Shown piece after piece: positions 2,487-32,025 of a stretch of 64,000 nt of DNA; within the stretch, counting starts at the first letter, position 1; every line of letters starts with the position of its first letter. The stretch is from an uncultured Eubacteriales bacterium (GTDB lineage: Bacteria; Bacillota; Clostridia; TANB77; UBA1234), in NCBI GenBank assembly GCA_964572605.1, contig CAZNFG010000002.1, positions 26,895 through 90,894 on the forward strand, in the 5' to 3' direction. The position numbers and the translations under genes are program-made. The notes below the pieces were generated by a model. The model made no database searches and was not told the origin of the DNA. It worked only from the letters and a program-made list of their open reading frames with translations.

Positions 2487-3209
2487 ATGTTAGAAATAAA
2501 AAATGTTTATTTTAAGAGAGATGACAAACAAATCTTAAAAAATATAAATTTAATAATACCTGATGAGAAATTCATAGTTATAACAGGACCTAATGGTTCT
2601 GGTAAGTCTACACTTGCAAAAATAATTATGGGAATAGAAAAGCCAGATAGTGGTGAAGTAATCTTTGATGGTGTAGATATAACAAAAAAATCAATTGATG
2701 AGAGAGCAAGATTGGGTATTGGTTTTGCTTTTCAACAAATTGTTAAGTTTAAAGGAATTACAGTTTATGACCTTATAAAATTATCATCAGGTAAAAATGT
2801 TACAAAAAATGAAGCTTGTGAAATTTTATCTATGGTAGGACTTTGTGCAAAAGAATATATCGATAGAGAAGTTAACGGTTCACTTTCAGGTGGAGAATTA
2901 AAAAGAATTGAGATTGCAACAGTTGTAATAAGAGAAAATAAATTAATAATCTTTGATGAGCCAGAAGCTGGAATAGATTTATGGAGTTTTACAAATCTTA
3001 TTAAGGTATTTGAAAAGTTAAGAGAGAAAAATTCAAAAAGTACATCAATAATAATCTCACATCAAGAAAGGATACTTGATATAGCAGATACAATAATATT
3101 AATAAAAAACGGGGAGATTGAATATACTGGTAATAAAGATACTATAAAGAACTTTGAATTCAATACTGGTGTGTGCTGTAAGCTTTCGGGAGGTGCCCAA
3201 AATGAATAA
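2487..3209 (+). CDS. sufC: Fe-S cluster assembly ATPase SufC
   Basis: Walker A GPNGSGKST, ABC signature LSGGELKR and Walker B IIFDEPEAGID. Adjacent to a SufB/D-family gene. Start MLEIKN at ATG 2487 has an RBS aatggaggg. Confidence 0.85.
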   Translation: MLEIKNVYFKRDDKQILKNINLIIPDEKFIVITGPNGSGKSTLAKIIMGIEKPDSGEVIFDGVDITKKSIDERARLGIGFAFQQIVKFKGITVYDLIKLSSGKNVTKNEACEILSMVGLCAKEYIDREVNGSLSGGELKRIEIATVVIRENKLIIFDEPEAGIDLWSFTNLIKVFEKLREKNSKSTSIIISHQERILDIADTIILIKNGEIEYTGNKDTIKNFEFNTGVCCKLSGGAQNE

Positions 3210-4116
3210 TATTGAAAGAAATTTATTAACTGAAATATCAGGAAGCGATACTTATGAAGGCGCATATAATATAAGAAAAGATGGAAAAGGAATTGAAAGA
3301 AAAGTTACTGAAAATATAAATATAGTAACTAAAGAAGATAAATCTGGTATCGATATATATGTAAAAGAAAATACAAAAAACGAATTTGTTCACATTCCTG
3401 TAATCATAACTGAAAGTGGACTTACAGATGTAGTATATAATGATTTTTATATAGGAAAGAATGCTAGAGTGTTTATTATTGCGGGATGTGGAATACACAA
3501 TGAACATCAACAAGATTCAACCCATAATGGAATTCATAGATTTTTCTTAGAAGAAGGTGCCTATGTAAAGTATGTAGAAAAACATTATGGAGAAGGTGAA
3601 GGAACTGGAAAGAAAGTATTAAATCCAGTTACAGAATTGTACTTAAAAGATGGAAGTACTCTTGAAATGGATACCGTACAGATAAAAGGCGTTGATTCTA
3701 CAGAAAGAATCACGAAAGGTGAATTAGGAGATAATACAAAGCTAATAATTAAAGAAAAGGTAATGACACATGGAGAGCAATATGCAAAAACACTTTTTGA
3801 TGTTACGCTAAATGGTGACAATGCAAGTACACATGTTACATCAAGAGCTGTTGCAGTAGATAACTCAAAACAAAGTTTTGTATCAAAAGTATATGGAAAC
3901 TCAAAATGTTTTGCACATGTTGAATGTGATGCGATTATAAAAGATAACGCATCAGTTAGCGCTGCACCAGAAGTTATTGCGAATAATGTAAATGCTAATC
4001 TTATTCATGAAGCGGCAATTGGAAAAATAGCAGGAGAACAATTAGTTAAGCTTATGACATTAGGACTAACAGAAAAAGAAGCAGAAGAAGAAATAATAAA
4101 AGGATTTTTAAAATAA
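3202..4116 (+). CDS. Fe-S cluster assembly protein, SufB/SufD family (clostridial SufBD type)
   Basis: 305-aa product overlapping the sufC stop (ATGAATAA coupling). C-terminal beta-helix region is typical of SufB/SufD. Two-gene sufC-sufBD arrangement as in Clostridia. Confidence 0.7.
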   Translation: MNNIERNLLTEISGSDTYEGAYNIRKDGKGIERKVTENINIVTKEDKSGIDIYVKENTKNEFVHIPVIITESGLTDVVYNDFYIGKNARVFIIAGCGIHNEHQQDSTHNGIHRFFLEEGAYVKYVEKHYGEGEGTGKKVLNPVTELYLKDGSTLEMDTVQIKGVDSTERITKGELGDNTKLIIKEKVMTHGEQYAKTLFDVTLNGDNASTHVTSRAVAVDNSKQSFVSKVYGNSKCFAHVECDAIIKDNASVSAAPEVIANNVNANLIHEAAIGKIAGEQLVKLMTLGLTEKEAEEEIIKGFLK

Positions 4117-4136
4117 TTTAGAGGAGGTCTTCAATA

Positions 4137-5012
4137 ATGGACCCTACATGCATAACAAATAGGTGTAAAAAAACACAAAAAGTTGGCATAATTGGAATTA
4201 TTGGAAATTTGTTTTTATTCATAATTAAAATAGTAGTTGCAGTAGCTAGCAAAAGCCAATCACTACTCGCAGATGCAATAAATAGTGGAACAGATATATT
4301 ATCATCACTTATGACATACATAGGTGGTAAAATATCTGGAAACAAATCAGATAAGTATCATAACTATGGATATGGAAAAGCAGAATATGTTTTTTCCTTA
4401 ATAATTAGTTTGGTAATGGGTTATTTAGCAATTAAAATTGCAATTAATGGAATAACATCACTTGTAAAAGGCAATGTGTTTACATTTTCATATAGCTTAA
4501 TAATCGTATGTATAGTAACAATAATAACAAAGTTTCTACTATATATATATACTAAGAAAATAGGTAAAGAAGAAGAAAGTATATTAATACTTGCAAATGC
4601 TGAAGATCACAAAAATGATATGCTAGTTACGTTCACGGTTTTAATTGGTGTAGTAGCAGCTTTGTTTAATATTTATTATCTTGATAGAATAGTAGCAATT
4701 GGTATTGCAGTAAGAATATTATATGTAGCAATTAAATTCTTTTCAGAAAGCTATTCTGTTTTAATAGACGAATCAATTGATGAAGAGTCAATGAAAAAAA
4801 TTATAGAGATAATTAATAATAATGAAAAAGTTGATCATATAGACAAAATAACTTCAAAGGCTGTAGGAAAAGCTTTTGTAATAATTACAAAGGTTTCGGT
4901 AGATGGAAATATGACTGTAGATGAAAGTCATCAAGTTGCAGGAGTATTAAAAGCGGAAATTATGAAACTTAAAAATGTTTATGATGTAATTGTACATGTA
5001 AATCCTGTATAA
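4137..5012 (+). CDS. cation diffusion facilitator family transporter (CzcD/FieF-like)
   Basis: Six-TM N-terminus with a cytoplasmic C-terminal domain. Motifs HNYGYGKAEYVFSL and the aspartate-containing TM5 are typical of the CDF family. Confidence 0.8.
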   Translation: MDPTCITNRCKKTQKVGIIGIIGNLFLFIIKIVVAVASKSQSLLADAINSGTDILSSLMTYIGGKISGNKSDKYHNYGYGKAEYVFSLIISLVMGYLAIKIAINGITSLVKGNVFTFSYSLIIVCIVTIITKFLLYIYTKKIGKEEESILILANAEDHKNDMLVTFTVLIGVVAALFNIYYLDRIVAIGIAVRILYVAIKFFSESYSVLIDESIDEESMKKIIEIINNNEKVDHIDKITSKAVGKAFVIITKVSVDGNMTVDESHQVAGVLKAEIMKLKNVYDVIVHVNPV

Positions 5013-5780: not shown

Positions 5781-5822
5781 GACAGAATATCGAAAAGTAT
5801 TCTGTCTTTTCTCTATGTAAAC
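5781..5822 (+). terminator. Rho-independent terminator
   Basis: Hairpin gacagaatatcgaaaagtattctgtc followed by TTTT. Confidence 0.7.
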
Positions 5823-6044
5823 CCATAGAACATAATCTAATTATCTGCTACCTTGAAACCCGCAAACCATTGCTGCATAAGAATGAAAACATAAAAAATT
5901 TCAAATATTTTATCTATAAAAAAAGCTTTTTTCTGTTGTAAAAAAAAATAGGTGTGCTACAATTAATAATAGAATATATGAGTAAGTTAAATATTCATTT
6001 TACGAAAGACAAAAAAATTTAAGACACGAAGGGGGCACTTTTAT

Positions 6045-8243
6045 ATGAACGTAATAAAATTAAAAAGAGAAAACAACGCATTAGATATAGCACTAATGGT
6101 TGAATCAGCAACAAAAACAGAAAAACAAGAGTATGATGAGACTGCAATAGTGGAGGCTTTGGTACGTGAGGCTAATTGCGAAAGAATGCTAGCAAAAGAA
6201 GTAGCTTCTATGGTAACGGAAAGATTAAAAAATGCAAATGTTTCTGAAGTAAGCACATCTTTAATTAGATCTATGGTTAATAATGTTTTATTGGAAAAAG
6301 GTCTAAACAAAGAACTAAAGAGCAATTCAGAGGCTTCTATTCCATTTTATAATATTACTGAAATCATAGAAAATGCTAACAAAGAAAATGGAAATACGGC
6401 ACACAATCCAGAATCTATTAATTTGACACTAGCTGAAAGAATTTTGAAGGAATATGCACTTAAAAATGTATTTGATGAAGATATTTCTTCTGCCCATTTA
6501 GCTGGTGAGATACATATACATGATCTTGGAATGATTGACAGATTTTATTGCTCAGGACACTCTCCTGAATACGTTAAGAAAAATGGAATAAGAAATATTC
6601 CTACTATTCCATCAAATTCAAAACCTGCTAATAGTGCAGCTGTTTTGGCAAGACATATTTGTTCTTTTACTCAATTTTTACAAGGACAGTTTGCAGGTGC
6701 AATTGGATGGGAAGCAATAAATGTGTTTTTTGCTCCTCTTTTAAAAGGAATGCCATATAAAGAAATAAAACAATTGGCACAAACTTTAATATTTGACTTA
6801 TCTCAACTTGCTGGTGCAAGGGGTGGACAAGTTGCATTCTCAGACTTCAATGTATATGCATCAATTCCAAACCATTACCAAGAGGTTTTTGCTATGGGAC
6901 CAAAAGGTAAGTATATGGTAACAAATGAATTAGAAGAAATCTCATATTTTGATACACAAGAAGATGCACAAGAATATGCAGATGAAACAGGATATAGAAT
7001 CTTAAGATATAGAGATTATGAAACAGAAGCTAGGTTATTTGCAAAAGCAATTTTAGAGGTAGTAGGTGAGGGTGATGCGGATGGAATGCCATTTGCTTTC
7101 CCAAAAATTAATCTACACATTAATGAAGAATGCTTTACAGATCCAAAGACCAAAGCTTTATTAATGGTGGCTTGCGAAGCATCTAGTAAGAATGGATGCC
7201 CATATTTTATATTTGATAGAAATGCTTTTTCTGTATCACAATGTTGTAGATTAAAGATAGATTTTTCAGAAGAGGATAAAAAGTTAATAAATACACCAGA
7301 AGAATTAAGATTTGTTGGTGGACAAAATGTTTCTATCAATATGCCAAACATTCCATTAAAAGTTGGAAAAAACATGGAGGCTTTTTATAAAGAATTAGCA
7401 ACAAAAATGGAAATGGCTGCAAGAGCTAATTTACAAAGACAAAACTATGTGTGGAAGCTTGCGAGTCTAGAAAACACACCACTTGGTTTTTACATTAAAG
7501 GAATGGATGGAAAGGCTTATATAAGACTTAAGAACATTTCTTATTTAATAGGAATAGTTGGATTAAATGAATGCGTATACAACTTAATTGGAGAGCAATT
7601 ACATGAATCTGATGAAGCATATATGTTAGGATTAGAAATAGTTTCATTCATGTATCAACAAACAAAAGACTTAAGTAAAAAGTATGGTATAGCAATAAAA
7701 CTTGAAGAAACACCAGCAGAAAGCACAGCTGGAAGATTTGCAAAACTAGATATTAAGAAATATGGTGCAGCAGCATACCACAAAGAAAATACATTTGGAG
7801 TTTATTATACAAACTCAGTTCATTTTGCTGCAGATAGTGATGTAGACTATATAACAAGACTTCAAAAACAATCAAAATTCCATACATTAGTGGAAGCAGG
7901 AAGTATGATTCATATTTGGTCAGGAAATAATGTTCCAAGTGCAAAAGCAATATACAGTTTATTAGAGACAACATGGTATAAGACAAAATGTGTACAATGG
8001 GTTTTATCACCAGAATATACATTATGCCAAGATTGCAGAACTAAGAGCAATGGCTTATTAGAGCAATGCCCAAAATGCGGAAGTATCCACATAAGAGGTG
8101 TTACGAGAATAACAGGTTACTATGTGTTTATAGACAAATTTAACAGTGGAAAGCGTGCAGAACTTGCCGATAGATTGAAAGAAAATGTTGATCGTGAGCA
8201 AGTTGCAAAAGCGCAAGATGCTACAGAAAAAGCTAGTTATTAG
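6045..8243 (+). CDS. nrdD: anaerobic ribonucleoside-triphosphate reductase (class III RNR) NrdD
   Basis: 732-aa product with an ATP-cone-like N-terminus, a C-terminal Zn ribbon CQDC...CPKCGS and a glycyl-radical region RITGYY. Followed by nrdH-like and nrdG genes. Confidence 0.9.
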   Translation: MNVIKLKRENNALDIALMVESATKTEKQEYDETAIVEALVREANCERMLAKEVASMVTERLKNANVSEVSTSLIRSMVNNVLLEKGLNKELKSNSEASIPFYNITEIIENANKENGNTAHNPESINLTLAERILKEYALKNVFDEDISSAHLAGEIHIHDLGMIDRFYCSGHSPEYVKKNGIRNIPTIPSNSKPANSAAVLARHICSFTQFLQGQFAGAIGWEAINVFFAPLLKGMPYKEIKQLAQTLIFDLSQLAGARGGQVAFSDFNVYASIPNHYQEVFAMGPKGKYMVTNELEEISYFDTQEDAQEYADETGYRILRYRDYETEARLFAKAILEVVGEGDADGMPFAFPKINLHINEECFTDPKTKALLMVACEASSKNGCPYFIFDRNAFSVSQCCRLKIDFSEEDKKLINTPEELRFVGGQNVSINMPNIPLKVGKNMEAFYKELATKMEMAARANLQRQNYVWKLASLENTPLGFYIKGMDGKAYIRLKNISYLIGIVGLNECVYNLIGEQLHESDEAYMLGLEIVSFMYQQTKDLSKKYGIAIKLEETPAESTAGRFAKLDIKKYGAAAYHKENTFGVYYTNSVHFAADSDVDYITRLQKQSKFHTLVEAGSMIHIWSGNNVPSAKAIYSLLETTWYKTKCVQWVLSPEYTLCQDCRTKSNGLLEQCPKCGSIHIRGVTRITGYYVFIDKFNSGKRAELADRLKENVDREQVAKAQDATEKASY

Positions 8244-8260
8244 TAAGGAGGAACGTTATA

Positions 8261-8482
8261 ATGATAAAAACATACACAATTCCAAATTGTCCTATGTGTG
8301 AAGAACTTAAGAAGTATATGAAAGAAAGTCATATATCTTATGAAGAAACAAATGTTGAAGAGGACTTTATGGCTAGAGCCAAAATGGTTAGCCTTGATAT
8401 AGAACAAATGCCTGCAGTTGAGGTAAATGGCAAGGTTTACTCTGGAGATGTAGATGAATTGAAAAGTATAGTTGCAATGTAA
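8261..8482 (+). CDS. glutaredoxin-like protein (NrdH family, CPMC active site)
   Basis: 73-aa product with an N-terminal IPNCPMCEELKKY thioredoxin-fold CxxC motif. Lies between nrdD and nrdG. Confidence 0.75.
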   Translation: MIKTYTIPNCPMCEELKKYMKESHISYEETNVEEDFMARAKMVSLDIEQMPAVEVNGKVYSGDVDELKSIVAM

Positions 8483-8582
8483 CAATATATAAGTCGCAAA
8501 GCAGGGGCATTCTGAAAATGTGCAATGCAGTTGTTGCACTTGTTTTGGAGTGCCCCTATAAATTGCTTAAGGGAGGATACAA

Positions 8583-9248
8583 ATGATTAAGTCAGTAATA
8601 TGGTCAAGTATGATTGATTACCCTGATAACGTGTGTACCACTTTGTTTACGGGTGTTTGTAATTTTGATTGTGAATTTTGCTATAACAGAGGATTATTAA
8701 AAGAAAAGGAAATAGATTTCGATAATGATATTTTACCTAAACTATTAAATAGAAAAGATTTTATAGATCATGTTATAATATCTGGAGGTGAATGCACAAT
8801 ACATCCAGATTTTGAAAGAATTGTAAATGTATTGCATGATAATGGTTTTAAAATAGGAATACATACAAATGGATATGCTGTAGATATATTAAAGAAAGTA
8901 ATAAATAAAATAGACTACATAGGCATGGATATAAAAAATGATTTCGATAATTATAATGAAATAACAAAAAAAGATGTAAATATATCTAAAATAAAAGAAG
9001 CAATAGATACAATTTTAAAAAGCAAAGTAAATTATGAATTTAGAACGACAGTTTATCCCAAATATATAAATGAAGAGAACGTAATAAATATTGCTAAATA
9101 TTTAAAAGAGGTTGGTTCTAAGCAATATGTTTTGCAAAACTATTTTGACTTTAATAAGACAGTTATTCCATATTCTGCAGAAAAGATGAAGTCAATTCAG
9201 GCAAAATGTAATGCATATTTACCTACTACACTTAGAGGAATAATATAA
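8583..9248 (+). CDS. nrdG: anaerobic ribonucleotide reductase activating enzyme (radical SAM) NrdG
   Basis: Radical-SAM motif CNFDCEFCYN. Size and position match the class III RNR activase. Confidence 0.85.
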   Translation: MIKSVIWSSMIDYPDNVCTTLFTGVCNFDCEFCYNRGLLKEKEIDFDNDILPKLLNRKDFIDHVIISGGECTIHPDFERIVNVLHDNGFKIGIHTNGYAVDILKKVINKIDYIGMDIKNDFDNYNEITKKDVNISKIKEAIDTILKSKVNYEFRTTVYPKYINEENVINIAKYLKEVGSKQYVLQNYFDFNKTVIPYSAEKMKSIQAKCNAYLPTTLRGII

Positions 9249-9261
9249 AGGAGGTGTTTTT

Positions 9262-9474
9262 ATGACAAACGAACTAATAGAAAAGGGATTAAGACTAAAT
9301 CCAAGCATGAAATTAAACGATGATGAAGAGCATGTAAAAAGAATACTACTTGGCATTGAAAAAAAAGATGGTCATTGTCCATGTATATTAACGGTAAATG
9401 ACGATACTATATGCCCATGTAAAAAGATGAGAGAAGAGAGTATTTGCTGCTGTAAGTTATATTTGAACAAATAA
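9262..9474 (+). CDS. ferredoxin:thioredoxin reductase catalytic-subunit-like small Cys-rich protein
   Basis: 70-aa product carrying HCPC...CPC...CCC cysteine pairs that resemble the FTR catalytic chain. RBS aaggagg. Translationally linked after nrdG. Confidence 0.5.
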   Translation: MTNELIEKGLRLNPSMKLNDDEEHVKRILLGIEKKDGHCPCILTVNDDTICPCKKMREESICCCKLYLNK

Positions 9475-17848: not shown

Positions 17849-17855
17849 AATATTA

Positions 17856-18052
17856 ACCCTACGAGGTGCGATTAGTTTGAGTGTTATTTAGAACCAACAC
17901 TAAGATTTAAGGGAGTTTGGTACTTCGAGTATTTAGTGTATGCTCAACCGTGAAAACTGATTGAGAAACCAATAAAATACTTGGGAGAACACCCACCTGT
18001 GTATGCAGGCTCTTAAATTAGCTCAGATGTACGGCCTATGTAGGGTTTTTAT
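17856..18052 (+). ncRNA. candidate structured small RNA (about 195 nt, 6S-RNA-like), closed by a long-range ccctac/gtaggg helix and a T-run
   Basis: It has its own promoter and no ORF. The 5' ccctac pairs with the 3' gtaggg, and tttttattt follows. Internal hairpins are present (gtacttcgagtat; cctgtgtatgcagg). It is convergent with the minus-strand gene. Confidence 0.35.
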
Positions 18053-30276: not shown

Positions 30277-32025
30277 ATGGAAGAGAAAGTTAAAATAACA
30301 ATTGATGGTAAAGAGTTAGAAGTACCAAAAACATATACAGTGCTAGATGCTGCTAGAAGTGCAGATATAGATATTCCAACACTTTGCCACCTTAAAGAAG
30401 TAAATGCAATAGGCGCATGCAGAATGTGTATCGTTGAAGTTGAAGGTGCACGTGGATTTGTAACATCTTGTGTAATGCCAGTTAGTGATGGTATGGTAGT
30501 TAGAACAAACACAAAAGCAATTAGAGATGCAAGAAAAGTTACATTAGAACTTTTACTATCGAACCATGTTAAAGAATGTCTATCTTGTTCAAGAAGTGGT
30601 AGATGCGAATTACAAACATTAGCAAAAAAATTAAATGTAACAGATATTGAATATGAAGGAGATATGACAAAAAGAGAAATAGATGACTTTTCTCCATCAA
30701 TAATTAGAGATACAAGTAAATGTATTCTTTGCAAAAGATGTGTTGCAACATGTAATAAAGTTCAAAATGTTGGTGCAATATATACAATTAATAGAGGTTT
30801 TAAATCTAAGATAGGAACAGCATGTGATAAGTCTTTAAACGATGTTCCTTGTAGTCTTTGCGGACAATGTATACAAGCATGTCCAACAGGAGCATTAAGA
30901 GAAAAAGACAATACAGATGAAGTTTGGGAAGCATTAAATAATCCAGAACTTCATGTATTAGTTCAGACAGCACCTGCAGTTAGAGTGGCAATTGGGGAAG
31001 AATTTGATATGCCAATTGGAACTTTAGCAACAGGAAAGATGGTAACATCACTTAAAAAATTAGGATTTGAAAAAGTATTCGATACAGATAGTGGTGCAGA
31101 CTTAACAATAATGGAAGAAGGAACAGAATTAATTCAGAGATTACAAAATAATGGAGTGCTTCCAATGATTACATCTTGTAGTCCAGGATGGGTAAGATAT
31201 GCAGAAGGACATTATCCAGAATTACTAAATCATTTATCTACAGCAAAATCACCACATCAAATGTTTGGGGCAATATTAAAAACATACTATGCAGAAAAAG
31301 TTGGATTAGATCCATCTAAGATATTTGTAGTATCTGTAATGCCATGTGTTGCTAAAAAAGCTGAATCAGAAAGAGAAGAAATGAAAGTTAATAACTTAAG
31401 AGATGTTGATGCTGTTATTACAACAAGAGAAGTAGCAAGAATGATGAGAGAAGCAGGAATAGATTTAGCAAAACAAGAAGAAGGAACATTTGATGATCCA
31501 ATAGGAGAAGCAACAGGAGCTGGAGCGATTTTTGGAACAACAGGTGGAGTTATGGAAGCGGCACTTCGTACAGTAAAAGAAATCTTAACAGGTGAAAAAC
31601 TAGATAAGTTAGATTTTGAAGAAGTTCGTGGAGAAAAAGGAATAAAAGAAGCTACAGTTAAAATGGGAGATAAAGAAGTAAGAGTTGCAATAGCACATGG
31701 ATTAGGTAATGCTAAAAAAATAATGGATATGATAAAAGAAGGAAATGCACCATATGACTTCGTTGAAATTATGGCATGCCCAGGTGGATGTGTAATGGGT
31801 GGAGGACAACCAATCTGTGATAGCAAGACAAGAGCAACTGTAGACGTAAGAGCGTTGAGAGCAGGGGCACTTTATAAATATGATAAAGAACTAACAATAA
31901 GAAAATCTCATGAAAACCCATTTATTAAGAAACTATATGAAGAGTTTTTAGAAAAACCAGGAAGCCACAAAGCACATGAGTTATTACATACAACGTACCA
32001 TGAAAGAAAATATTTTGAAGATTAA
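30277..32025 (+). CDS. hydA: [FeFe]-hydrogenase catalytic subunit HydA (M3-type: 2Fe-2S + 3x4Fe-4S + H-cluster domain)
   Basis: N-terminal 2Fe-2S ferredoxin, a His-ligated cluster and two 4Fe-4S motifs. H-cluster motifs L2 MPCVAKKAE and L3 EIMACPGGCVMGGGQP are present. L1 reads TSCSPGW at 31171-31191. Confidence 0.9.
   Translation: MEEKVKITIDGKELEVPKTYTVLDAARSADIDIPTLCHLKEVNAIGACRMCIVEVEGARGFVTSCVMPVSDGMVVRTNTKAIRDARKVTLELLLSNHVKECLSCSRSGRCELQTLAKKLNVTDIEYEGDMTKREIDDFSPSIIRDTSKCILCKRCVATCNKVQNVGAIYTINRGFKSKIGTACDKSLNDVPCSLCGQCIQACPTGALREKDNTDEVWEALNNPELHVLVQTAPAVRVAIGEEFDMPIGTLATGKMVTSLKKLGFEKVFDTDSGADLTIMEEGTELIQRLQNNGVLPMITSCSPGWVRYAEGHYPELLNHLSTAKSPHQMFGAILKTYYAEKVGLDPSKIFVVSVMPCVAKKAESEREEMKVNNLRDVDAVITTREVARMMREAGIDLAKQEEGTFDDPIGEATGAGAIFGTTGGVMEAALRTVKEILTGEKLDKLDFEEVRGEKGIKEATVKMGDKEVRVAIAHGLGNAKKIMDMIKEGNAPYDFVEIMACPGGCVMGGGQPICDSKTRATVDVRALRAGALYKYDKELTIRKSHENPFIKKLYEEFLEKPGSHKAHELLHTTYHERKYFED

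What the first reader, a model, noticed from the sequence alone, without database searches (positions are those of the whole stretch)
6045..9474. Class III RNR operon extended by an NrdH-like glutaredoxin and an FTR-catalytic-subunit-like Cys protein: possible ferredoxin-driven reductant relay to NrdD
The order is nrdD, then a 73-aa CPMC glutaredoxin-like protein, then nrdG, then a 70-aa protein whose CPC/CPC/CCC cysteine pattern resembles the catalytic chain of ferredoxin:thioredoxin reductase. Intergenic gaps are short. Anaerobic RNRs are canonically reduced by formate or by thioredoxin-type systems. FTR-like enzymes in clostridia transfer electrons from ferredoxin to thioredoxin-like proteins. 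The co-operonic arrangement suggests a ferredoxin to FTR-like to NrdH-like to NrdD electron path.
Basis: inference. Interest (0 to 1): 0.5.

Follow-up and report, generated by a model that had tools for sequence, protein, structure and literature searches.

The report
Ferredoxin-type reductant relay for anaerobic RNR
A gut Clostridia genome places a 70-residue iron-sulfur-type disulfide reductase and a small glutaredoxin-like protein next to its anaerobic ribonucleotide reductase, most likely so that ferredoxin rather than formate or NADPH pays for DNA-precursor synthesis; the same module turns up in hundreds of phage contigs.

Summary
Window 6045-9474 encodes NrdD, a 73-aa CPMC glutaredoxin-like protein, NrdG, and a 70-aa protein with CPC-x9-CPC-x8-CCC.

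The 70-aa protein is a real but minimal relative of the ferredoxin:thioredoxin reductase catalytic chain and of ferredoxin:disulfide reductases (FDR). Profile hits to solved FTRc/FDR structures reach E 1e-5 to 3e-4 with all six Cys in register. Every significant fold match is FTRc or FDR.

The NrdD is the thiol-dependent type: βA Cys169, QCCR finger loop without Met, and Glu554.

The linkage is not chance:
- It recurs in 9 syntenic genomes and in NrdD relatives down to 54% identity.
- 70 of 80 viral loci carrying the small gene have it beside a class III or class II RNR, including C. botulinum phage c-st.
- All 46 viral NrdDs tested are the double-Cys/Glu type.
- Natural fusions link NrdD-Grx, FDR-Grx and NrdG-FDR.

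The relay itself has a biochemical precedent in Methanosarcina barkeri (Wei et al. 2015). This is therefore a new bacterial and phage variant of a known kind, not a new principle. All functional claims here are inferred.

In this clade a conserved terminator-like hairpin splits the cluster into nrdD-grx and nrdG-FDR.

The parts
5936..5963 (+). Promoter-like site for the cluster: TTGTAA, 16-nt spacer with TG, TACAAT. It lies downstream of the previous gene's terminator hairpin (~5781-5812).
   Evidence: Consensus scan and the sequence itself. This is a consensus match only. No NrdR box was found.
6045..8243 (+). nrdD, class III (glycyl-radical) ribonucleoside-triphosphate reductase of the thiol-dependent type. 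Key residues: βA Cys169; finger loop Q399-C400-C401-R402 with no Met; Glu554; Zn ribbon C661/C664/C675/C678; glycyl radical site G691 in RITGY. There is a degenerate N-terminal ATP-cone.
   Evidence: PF13597 7e-132 and TIGR02487 above cut-off. Alignment to T. maritima NrdD 4coi. All key residues are invariant in 106 homologues.
8261..8482 (+). Glutaredoxin-fold small redoxin (73 aa, active site CPMC). It is the proposed direct reductant of the NrdD active-site disulfide.
   Evidence: PF00462 41.8 bits (cut-off 22.9). It falls below the NrdH and YruB cut-offs. PDB relatives: 3zij at 1.7e-9, NrdH 1r7h at 5e-6. The homologous domain is fused to the NrdD C-terminus in P0142/P0143.
8505..8557 (+). 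Nested hairpin followed by a T-rich tract (inner stem 8520-8539 plus TTGTTTTGG). This terminator- or attenuator-like element separates nrdD-grx from nrdG-FDR.
   Evidence: Terminator scan and sequence. A hairpin plus T-run at the same position, with different sequence, is present in all 9 syntenic loci. It is absent where grx and nrdG abut or overlap (L081-L086).
8583..9248 (+). nrdG, the radical-SAM activase that installs the glycyl radical on NrdD (CNFDCEFC cluster motif).
   Evidence: TIGR02495 NrdG2 158.5 bits (cut-off 131.15); PF04055 1.3e-19.
9262..9474 (+). Minimal FTRc/FDR-like protein (70 aa). By alignment to Synechocystis FTRc, the predicted [4Fe-4S] ligands are C39, C51, C53 and C62, and the predicted redox-active disulfide is C41-C64. 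C63 occupies the position of FTR His86. The roles of the FTR residues are from my own knowledge.
   Evidence: PF02943 gives only 15.3 bits (cut-off 22) for this sequence alone. The family profile hits 4tpu (1e-5), 7bzk (4.8e-5), 7pwe (1e-4) and 1dj7 (2.6e-4) with all Cys motifs aligned. The best AF2 model has pLDDT 94. The 13 best Foldseek matches are all FTRc/FDR, TM 0.61-0.78. Six Cys are invariant across the family.

Best explanation
The cluster encodes a class III RNR together with its own ferredoxin-linked reductant relay.

NrdG installs the glycyl radical on NrdD. Each turnover oxidises the NrdD active-site cysteines (C169 with C400/C401) to a disulfide. The 73-aa CPMC glutaredoxin-like protein reduces that disulfide by thiol-disulfide exchange. 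The 70-aa protein is a minimal single-subunit ferredoxin:disulfide reductase. It would use a [4Fe-4S] cluster (C39, C51, C53, C62) and an adjacent disulfide (C41-C64) to re-reduce the redoxin in two one-electron steps from reduced ferredoxin. Ferredoxin is a main electron currency in this fermenter.

What is shown: the gene identities, the fold and Cys register of the small protein, the thiol-type signature of the NrdD, the recurrent linkage, and the fusions.

What is inferred: the Fe-S content, ferredoxin as the donor, the direction and partners of electron transfer, and independence from formate.

In this clade the hairpin between grx and nrdG probably sets higher expression for the stoichiometric pair (NrdD, Grx) than for the catalytic pair (NrdG, FDR).
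For: 1. FTRc/FDR homology. The family profile hits solved FTRc and FDR chains at E 1e-5 to 3e-4, with the three Cys pairs in register. All Foldseek matches with probability >=0.97 are FTRc/FDR, including the M. acetivorans FDR 4tpu and the D. psychrophila Grx/FDR fusion 7pwe. Viral relatives pass Pfam's PF02943 cut-off.

2. The NrdD chemistry calls for a thiol reductant. It has a QCCR double-Cys finger loop without the Met used for formate chemistry, plus the βA Cys and a Glu aligned to T. maritima E495.

3. Linkage.
- The same four genes occur in 9/9 syntenic genomes at 74-81% nucleotide identity.
- An FTRc-like ORF follows nrdG in NrdD relatives of 72%, 55% and 54% identity.
- In 80 viral loci the gene lies beside NrdD in 49 and beside class II RNR (NPCxE finger loop, Cys-rich C-terminal tail) in 21.
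- C. botulinum phage c-st has Grx-NrdG-NrdD-CST077-dUTPase.

4. A prediction was met. 46/46 FTRc-linked viral NrdDs have the CC finger loop plus Glu, and only one has Met. By contrast, 83% of double-Cys NrdDs in general carry Met (PMC9669993).

5. Fusions. NrdD-Grx in P0142/P0143. Mini-FDR-Grx in P0163. Grx/FDR in 7pwe.

6. Elsewhere the family pairs with thioredoxin: 27 of 71 non-RNR bacterial loci have an adjacent WCGPC Trx. That fits a redoxin reductase.

7. Biochemical precedent. FDR plus NrdH drive M. barkeri NrdD (Wei et al. 2015, as cited in PMC9176816 and PMC6262447).

8. The window encodes a HydABC-type [FeFe] hydrogenase, so the organism uses ferredoxin.
Against: There is no biochemical evidence at all.

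- The window protein alone is below Pfam's cut-off (15.3 against 22 bits).
- Four of the five AF2 models were low-confidence (52-69).
- The protein lacks about 40 residues of canonical FTRc and has no variable subunit. FTR His86 is replaced by Cys, so ferredoxin docking and the chemistry could differ.
- No ferredoxin gene is in the cluster.
- Most bacterial family members sampled (71/80) are not near an RNR.
- The most populous close NrdD relatives (75% identity, L081/L082) have nrdD-grx-nrdG without the FDR gene. The FDR is therefore dispensable there or supplied in trans.
- The small gene is physically tied to nrdG rather than to grx. A terminator-like hairpin separates them in this clade, start/stop codons overlap in phages, and one phage lineage has a fusion.
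- That Tm E495 is the defining NrdD2 glutamate rests on my memory of Wei et al. 2014, which I could not read.
Confidence: 0.62

Rival explanations
1. The FTRc-like protein serves the activase NrdG rather than the redoxin. It might pass low-potential electrons to the NrdG radical-SAM cluster. Alternatively it might keep cysteines of the NrdD Zn ribbon or glycyl-radical domain reduced, so that the radical can be installed or reinstalled.
For: The gene always directly follows nrdG. In this clade a conserved terminator-like hairpin groups nrdG with it and separates both from nrdD-grx. In phages the two ORFs overlap or abut in 78/80 loci, and they are one polypeptide in one lineage seen in two samples (L165/L170). 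In RF39-like genomes a CKC-type family member follows another activase-like radical-SAM gene.
Against: 21 viral loci place the gene right after class II RNRs, which have no activase. From my own knowledge, the cluster in the FTR fold is not a simple 2+/1+ electron carrier. FDR-Grx fusions (P0163, 7pwe) and adjacency to Trx point to a redoxin substrate. The fusion is a single lineage.
Confidence: 0.12
2. The small protein is a general-purpose ferredoxin-dependent redoxin reductase for thiol homeostasis. Its position next to nrdDG in this clade reflects co-transfer in a mobile nucleotide-metabolism module, not a dedicated partnership.
For: 71 of the 80 bacterial loci sampled are not RNR-linked, and 27 of those are Trx-linked. 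crAss001 gp5 sits among tRNA genes, not by an RNR. Close NrdD relatives lack it.
Against: Motif subtypes track context: x15-CHC with Trx, x10-CHC with viral NrdD, x8-CHC with class II RNR, and x8-CCC with this clade's NrdD. 70/80 viral copies are RNR-adjacent. The linkage survives divergence of NrdD to 54% identity.
Confidence: 0.14
3. The 70-aa ORF encodes a Cys-rich Zn-binding or structural peptide, or is not functionally expressed, and the resemblance to FTRc is superficial.
For: The Pfam score is below threshold. The protein is very short. Four of five AF2 models were poor.
Against: It has a strong SD sequence. It is conserved at 63-88% identity in 20 homologues, with invariant residues well beyond the Cys. 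The family has 912 clusters. Profile and fold matches go exclusively to FTRc/FDR.
Confidence: 0.05

Closest known systems
Methanosarcina barkeri class III RNR system: NrdD3 + NrdH-type redoxin + ferredoxin:disulfide reductase (Wei et al. 2015, Biochemistry 54:7019; the paper was not readable here and is known via PMC9176816, PMC6262447 and my own knowledge)
   Same: The logic is the same: reduced ferredoxin, then an FTRc-like [4Fe-4S] disulfide reductase, then a small Grx/Trx-fold redoxin encoded with the RNR, then the double-Cys NrdD. The finger-loop motif QCCR matches the motif reported for NrdD3. The best sequence match of the family profile in the PDB is the Methanosarcina FDR 4tpu.
   Different: This system is bacterial and phage-borne, not archaeal. 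The FDR here is 60-70 aa, core only, whereas the Methanosarcina FDR is 173 aa with a rubredoxin-type domain. The third motif is CCC rather than CYC. The NrdD has a Glu at the column of T. maritima E495, which NrdD3 is said to lack. The FDR gene lies inside the cluster, directly after nrdG.
Thioredoxin-dependent NrdD2 (Neisseria bacilliformis, Thermotoga maritima; Wei et al. 2014)
   Same: Double-Cys finger loop without Met, the βA Cys and the active-site Glu. This implies disulfide chemistry re-reduced by a redoxin.
   Different: Those enzymes use Trx, TrxR and NADPH. Here a Grx-fold redoxin and an FTRc-like gene are encoded with the RNR, which implies ferredoxin rather than NADPH as the source.
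[quoted passage not shown]
   Same: The CPC...CPC...CxC register is the same. The window's 'CPCKKMREESICCCKLY' compares with 'CPCVPMRERKECHCMLF'. Fold TM is 0.71-0.78.
   Different: The window protein has no variable subunit and is about 40 residues shorter. His86 is replaced by Cys. The spacing between the first two motifs is x9 instead of x16. The window protein alone is below Pfam's gathering score.
Desulfotalea psychrophila glutaredoxin/FDR fusion (PDB 7pwe)
   Same: An FDR module is covalently joined to a Grx module, so Grx is a natural FDR substrate. It is the top Foldseek hit. The analogous mini-FDR-Grx fusion P0163 exists in this family.
   Different: Here the two modules are separate genes and sit in an RNR context.

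Membership tests
FTRc / ferredoxin:disulfide reductase (PF02943) | Six cysteines arranged as CPC...CxC...CxC (four cluster ligands plus a redox-active pair) | tested here: met
   CPC39-41, CPC51-53 and C62/C64 are invariant in 35 diverse family members and align to the FTRc/FDR motifs.
FTRc / ferredoxin:disulfide reductase (PF02943) | Score above Pfam's gathering threshold | tested here: not met
   The window protein scores 15.3 bits against 22. Relatives do pass: viral L111 25.0, L165 28.8, P0167 30.2. The family profile reaches solved FTRc chains at 5e-5 to 3e-4.
FTRc / ferredoxin:disulfide reductase (PF02943) | FTRc fold | tested here: met
   AF2 model with pLDDT 94. The 13 top Foldseek PDB hits are all FTRc/FDR, TM 0.61-0.78. 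Caveat: the other four AF2 models scored 52-69.
FTRc / ferredoxin:disulfide reductase (PF02943) | His between the last two Cys (CHC; His86 of Synechocystis FTR) | tested here: not met
   The window clade has Cys (CCC). This position is Tyr in the solved FDRs 4tpu and 7pwe, Lys in RF39-type members and His in most others. It is therefore not defining for FDRs.
FTRc / ferredoxin:disulfide reductase (PF02943) | Binds a [4Fe-4S] cluster and reduces a redoxin disulfide with ferredoxin | not testable with these tools
   Needs anaerobic purification, spectroscopy and an activity assay.
Thiol-dependent class III RNR (NrdD2 sensu Wei et al. 2014) | Glycyl-radical motif and C-terminal Zn ribbon of NrdD | tested here: met
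   RITG691Y, with C661/C664/C675/C678, invariant in 106 homologues.
Thiol-dependent class III RNR (NrdD2 sensu Wei et al. 2014) | Third active-site Cys (double-Cys finger loop) in addition to the βA Cys | tested here: met
   C169 and Q399-C400-C401-R402. The definition is taken from PMC4493059 and PMC9669993.
Thiol-dependent class III RNR (NrdD2 sensu Wei et al. 2014) | Active-site Glu present | tested here: inconclusive
   E554 aligns with T. maritima E495 and is invariant. That E495 is the defining Glu is from my memory, and no coordinates were available to check the geometry.
Thiol-dependent class III RNR (NrdD2 sensu Wei et al. 2014) | No finger-loop Met (strictly redoxin-dependent subclades) | tested here: met
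   Gln399 occupies the Met position.
NrdD3 (methanogen type) | QCCR/A finger loop with neither Met nor the Glu | tested here: inconclusive
   The QCCR motif is met, but a Glu is present at the Tm E495 column. No M. barkeri sequence was available for a direct comparison.
NrdH redoxin (TIGR02194) / YruB family (TIGR02196) | Score above the family cut-off | tested here: not met
   NrdH scores 38.9 against 85.75, and YruB 51.6 against 88.55. It is a member of the Glutaredoxin Pfam family only (41.8 against 22.9).
NrdG activase (TIGR02495) | Score above the cut-off and a CxxxCxxC radical-SAM motif | tested here: met
   158.5 against 131.15 bits, with CNFDCEFC.

The most novel reading that the evidence does not exclude
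The minimal FTRc-like protein works physically with the activase NrdG: it is adjacent everywhere, overlapping in phages, and fused in one lineage. In this reading it couples ferredoxin both to glycyl-radical installation or repair and to redoxin recycling, forming a self-contained ferredoxin-powered RNR 'starter and refuel' unit that phages carry into anaerobic hosts. The clade-specific CCC motif would reflect a modified cluster-disulfide chemistry.
Probability: 0.1. Interest if true: 0.8.

Novelty: new variant of a known kind. Interest (0 to 1): 0.55.

Why it matters
Class III RNRs are usually discussed as formate- or thioredoxin/NADPH-dependent. The ferredoxin route has been shown for only one methanogen.

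If the reading is right, ferredoxin-driven ribonucleotide reduction is also used by gut Clostridia and by many phages of anaerobes, for both class III and class II RNRs. Those phages include the botulinum-toxin-converting phage c-st. The reductase involved, at 60-70 residues, would be the smallest FTR-type enzyme known.

It would also give a function to PHROG family phrog_38239, currently 'unknown function', and to many 'hypothetical proteins'. It offers a compact model for FTR-type cluster-disulfide chemistry. And it would explain how phages make dNTP synthesis independent of host NADPH and TrxR.

The system is directly testable with four small recombinant proteins.

Tried and rejected
- **Primary papers not available.** Wei et al. 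2014 (PMC4246965), Wei et al. 2015 (PMC4697749) and Prakash et al. 2018 (PMC6005431) are not held. The precedent and the E495 assignment therefore rest on secondary citations and memory.
- **Literature searches.** Searches for an FTR-RNR link in phages or Clostridia found only cyanophage papers.
- **NrdR box.** A search upstream of nrdD found nothing above chance.
- **First neighbour analysis.** The greedy gene caller dropped the small gene in 31 loci, so I redid it with seeding.
- **Apparent long 'fusions' in bacterial loci.** L024, L038, L042, L053, L066 and L077 were start-codon artefacts, not fusions.
- **Model geometry.** No model coordinates are exposed, so Cys/Glu geometry could not be measured.
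- **NrdG-FDR fusion.** Tested for recurrence: it is only one lineage, so I gave it little weight.
- **Prophage origin of the window cluster.** Considered and rejected: the flanks are chromosomal (6S RNA, glmS ribozyme, tRNAs, hydrogenase).


Full report
**The observation.** nrdD is at 6045-8243 (732 aa), a 73-aa CPMC protein at 8261-8482, nrdG at 8583-9248 (221 aa), and a 70-aa protein at 9262-9474 with CPC, CPC and CCC. Family scans identify NrdD (PF13597 7e-132; TIGR02487 above cut-off) and NrdG (TIGR02495 158.5 bits against 131). The 73-aa protein is a Glutaredoxin-family member (PF00462 41.8 bits against 22.9) that stays below the NrdH and YruB cut-offs. For the 70-aa protein the only match is a sub-threshold hit to PF02943, the FTR catalytic chain (15.3 bits against 22). 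All four genes have strong ribosome-binding sites. tRNA-Met and tRNA-Tyr follow with their own promoter-like site and terminator.

**What the 70-aa protein is.** A word-indexed search found only 23 close relatives, with six invariant Cys and many other invariant residues. A scan of one genome per species found relatives in at least 580 genomes. An exhaustive profile search found 912 clusters at 50% identity, mostly 55-100 aa.

A profile of 35 diverse members hits solved structures of true FTR catalytic chains: Arabidopsis 7bzk at 4.8e-5 and Synechocystis 1dj7 at 2.6e-4. It also hits two ferredoxin:disulfide reductases: Methanosarcina acetivorans 4tpu at 1e-5 and the Desulfotalea psychrophila Grx/FDR fusion 7pwe at 1e-4. 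All three Cys motifs are in register in these alignments.

The best AlphaFold2 model has pLDDT 94, although the other four models scored 52-69. Its 13 best Foldseek matches in the PDB are all FTRc/FDR chains, with TM 0.61-0.78. The protein is therefore a minimal FTRc/FDR core.

By alignment, and using the roles of FTR residues from my own knowledge, C39, C51, C53 and C62 would bind the cluster and C41-C64 would be the redox-active disulfide. C63 replaces FTR His86. That position is Tyr in the solved FDRs, Lys in an RF39-like subgroup and His in most family members.

**What kind of NrdD this is.** Published classifications separate three types: formate-type enzymes (MGCR finger loop), thiol-dependent enzymes (an extra finger-loop Cys plus an active-site Glu), and NrdD3 (QCCR/A, with no Met and no Glu) (PMC4493059; PMC9669993). 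The window NrdD has βA Cys169, Q399-C400-C401-R402, a Zn ribbon, and Gly691 in RITGY. It also has Glu554, which aligns with T. maritima Glu495. All of these are invariant in 106 homologues of at least 54% identity.

The enzyme is therefore of the redoxin-dependent kind. Whether to label it NrdD2 or NrdD3 is unsettled, because the identity of Tm E495 as the defining Glu is from memory and the primary papers were not available.

**Is the linkage real?** Among the 80 best genomic loci, the nine closest have the same four genes in the same order. These are uncultured gut Clostridia/Eubacteriales, 74-81% nucleotide identity over the region. The other 71 have no RNR genes within 6 kb, but 27 of them have a WCGPC thioredoxin immediately adjacent on the same strand.

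Starting instead from NrdD, relatives at 72%, 55% and 54% identity carry nrdD-grx-nrdG followed by an unannotated FTRc-like ORF. The abundant 75%-identity group has nrdD-grx-nrdG only.

In viral contigs, 346 encode a relative. Of the best 80, 49 have it next to NrdD, usually in the order grx-nrdD-small nrdG-FTRc with a dUTPase nearby. Another 21 have it directly after a class II RNR with an NPCxE finger loop, a B12 insertion domain and a Cys-rich C-terminal tail.

Clostridium botulinum phage c-st has glutaredoxin-NrdG-NrdD-CST077-dUTPase. CST077 is annotated only as weakly similar to FTR. PHROGs lists the family (phrog_38239) as unknown function.

Motif subtypes follow context:
- Trx-linked bacterial members have CPC-x9-C[MI]C-x15-CHC.
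- NrdD-linked viral members mostly have CPC-x9-CMC-x10-CHC.
- Class II-linked viral members have CPC-x9-CPC-x8-CHC.
- The window clade has CPC-x9-CPC-x8-CCC.

**A test of the model.** If the small protein feeds a thiol relay, the NrdDs linked to it should be thiol-type. All 46 full-length FTRc-linked viral NrdDs have the βA Cys, a double-Cys finger loop and the Glu. Only one has the finger-loop Met. In the general population, 83% of double-Cys NrdDs carry Met.

**Fusions connect the parts.**
- NrdD with a C-terminal Grx domain: P0142/P0143.
- Mini-FDR with a C-terminal Grx domain: P0163, and the solved Grx/FDR fusion 7pwe.
- NrdG with mini-FDR: L165/L170, one lineage seen in two samples.

**Mechanism.** Reduced ferredoxin reduces the mini-FDR, which reduces the CPMC redoxin, which reduces the NrdD active-site disulfide. 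NrdG acts separately to install the radical. The window also encodes a HydABC-type [FeFe] hydrogenase (27831-32025), so ferredoxin is an available currency. The relay has a biochemical precedent in M. barkeri (Wei et al. 2015, cited). FDRs are described as FTRc-related Fe-S enzymes of archaea and bacteria (PMC6262447).

**Complication.** In this clade a hairpin plus T-run lies between grx and nrdG in the window and in all nine syntenic loci, at a conserved position but with unrelated sequences. Transcriptionally the FDR gene therefore groups with nrdG. In phages it overlaps nrdG. This keeps alive a rival in which the small protein serves the activase. The class II RNR loci, which have no activase, and the Grx and Trx links argue against that as the main role.

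**Comparison and novelty.** This is not a new principle. It differs from the Methanosarcina system in four ways: the host range (bacteria and phages), the reductase (a 60-70-aa core without a rubredoxin domain, with CCC), the NrdD active site (Glu present), and the extension to class II RNRs. I found no paper in the searchable library describing this. I rate it a new variant of a known kind, of moderate interest. All functional steps remain inferred.

Noticed in passing
window 8483-8582; L001-L009 grx-nrdG spacers: A terminator-like hairpin plus T-run lies between grx and nrdG in the window and in all 9 syntenic genomes. Its position is conserved but its sequence is not. It is absent in more distant loci, where grx and nrdG abut or overlap. 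This suggests differential expression of nrdD-grx versus nrdG-FDR. A weak TTGCAC-17-TATAAA promoter-like site overlaps it (8534-8562).
   Followed up: partly
L165:1923-2585 (same contig as L169) and L170: A single 221-aa ORF fuses a small phage-type NrdG activase to the FTRc-like module (Pfam Fer4_12 + FeThRed_B). It was seen in two metagenome samples with identical sequence. 78 other loci keep the two as separate adjacent ORFs.
   Followed up: yes
P0163 (127 aa); P0142/P0143 (813 aa): Natural fusions: mini-FTRc with a C-terminal glutaredoxin domain (P0163), and NrdD with a C-terminal glutaredoxin domain bearing CPNC (P0142/P0143).
   Followed up: yes
L116/L168 (Clostridium phage c-st CST076) and one further viral NrdD (the 948-aa L138 or 977-aa L140): Inteins are inserted exactly between the two finger-loop cysteines (C|C) of phage NrdDs. 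The class II RNR of L107 also carries a Hint/intein module.
   Followed up: no
L167 (Bacteroides phage crAss001, gp5, record 2271-2468): In crAss001 the family member, annotated 'putative ferredoxin-thioredoxin reductase', sits inside a tRNA gene array rather than next to an RNR. In the window the gene is also followed directly by two tRNA genes. This may be coincidence.
   Followed up: no
L012, L013, L016 and related RF39-like loci: The CKC-type family members lie between a ~296-aa activase-like radical-SAM gene and a secreted or membrane-anchored CxxC thioredoxin-like protein. This is a third, unexplained context for the family.
   Followed up: no
L015:5959-6171 (Riflebacteria MAG): A CCC-type member closely resembling the window clade's protein occurs with no RNR genes within 6 kb.
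   Followed up: partly
P0011 (alignment A1); L103 and L156: One close homologue reads RCC instead of CCC, which would remove the predicted cluster ligand C62 unless C63 substitutes. Two viral loci carry two FTRc-like copies.
   Followed up: no
P0167 (151 aa): A SpoIIID-like DNA-binding domain is fused to an FTRc-like module (Pfam SpoIIID 3e-18 + FeThRed_B 5e-7). This is an unexpected pairing.
   Followed up: no
window 27831-32025: Three-gene HydABC-type [FeFe] hydrogenase: a NuoE-like 2Fe-2S subunit, a NuoF-like FMN/Fe-S subunit, and the HydA catalytic subunit. It indicates ferredoxin/NADH-linked hydrogen metabolism.
   Followed up: partly
window 17853-18050; 22307-22457; 3154-5012: 6S RNA; a glmS ribozyme upstream of the glmS gene (22498-24312); a SufBD-like protein and a cation-efflux transporter upstream of the nrd cluster. 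These mark the window as ordinary chromosome, not prophage.
   Followed up: no
L086 (contig ERZ4218132 NODE_1262): An NrdD relative (54% identity) with grx, nrdG and the start of an FTRc-like gene lies on a contig whose upstream genes are many small ORFs plus a DNA methyltransferase. This looks phage-like. The contig ends inside the FTRc-like gene.
   Followed up: partly
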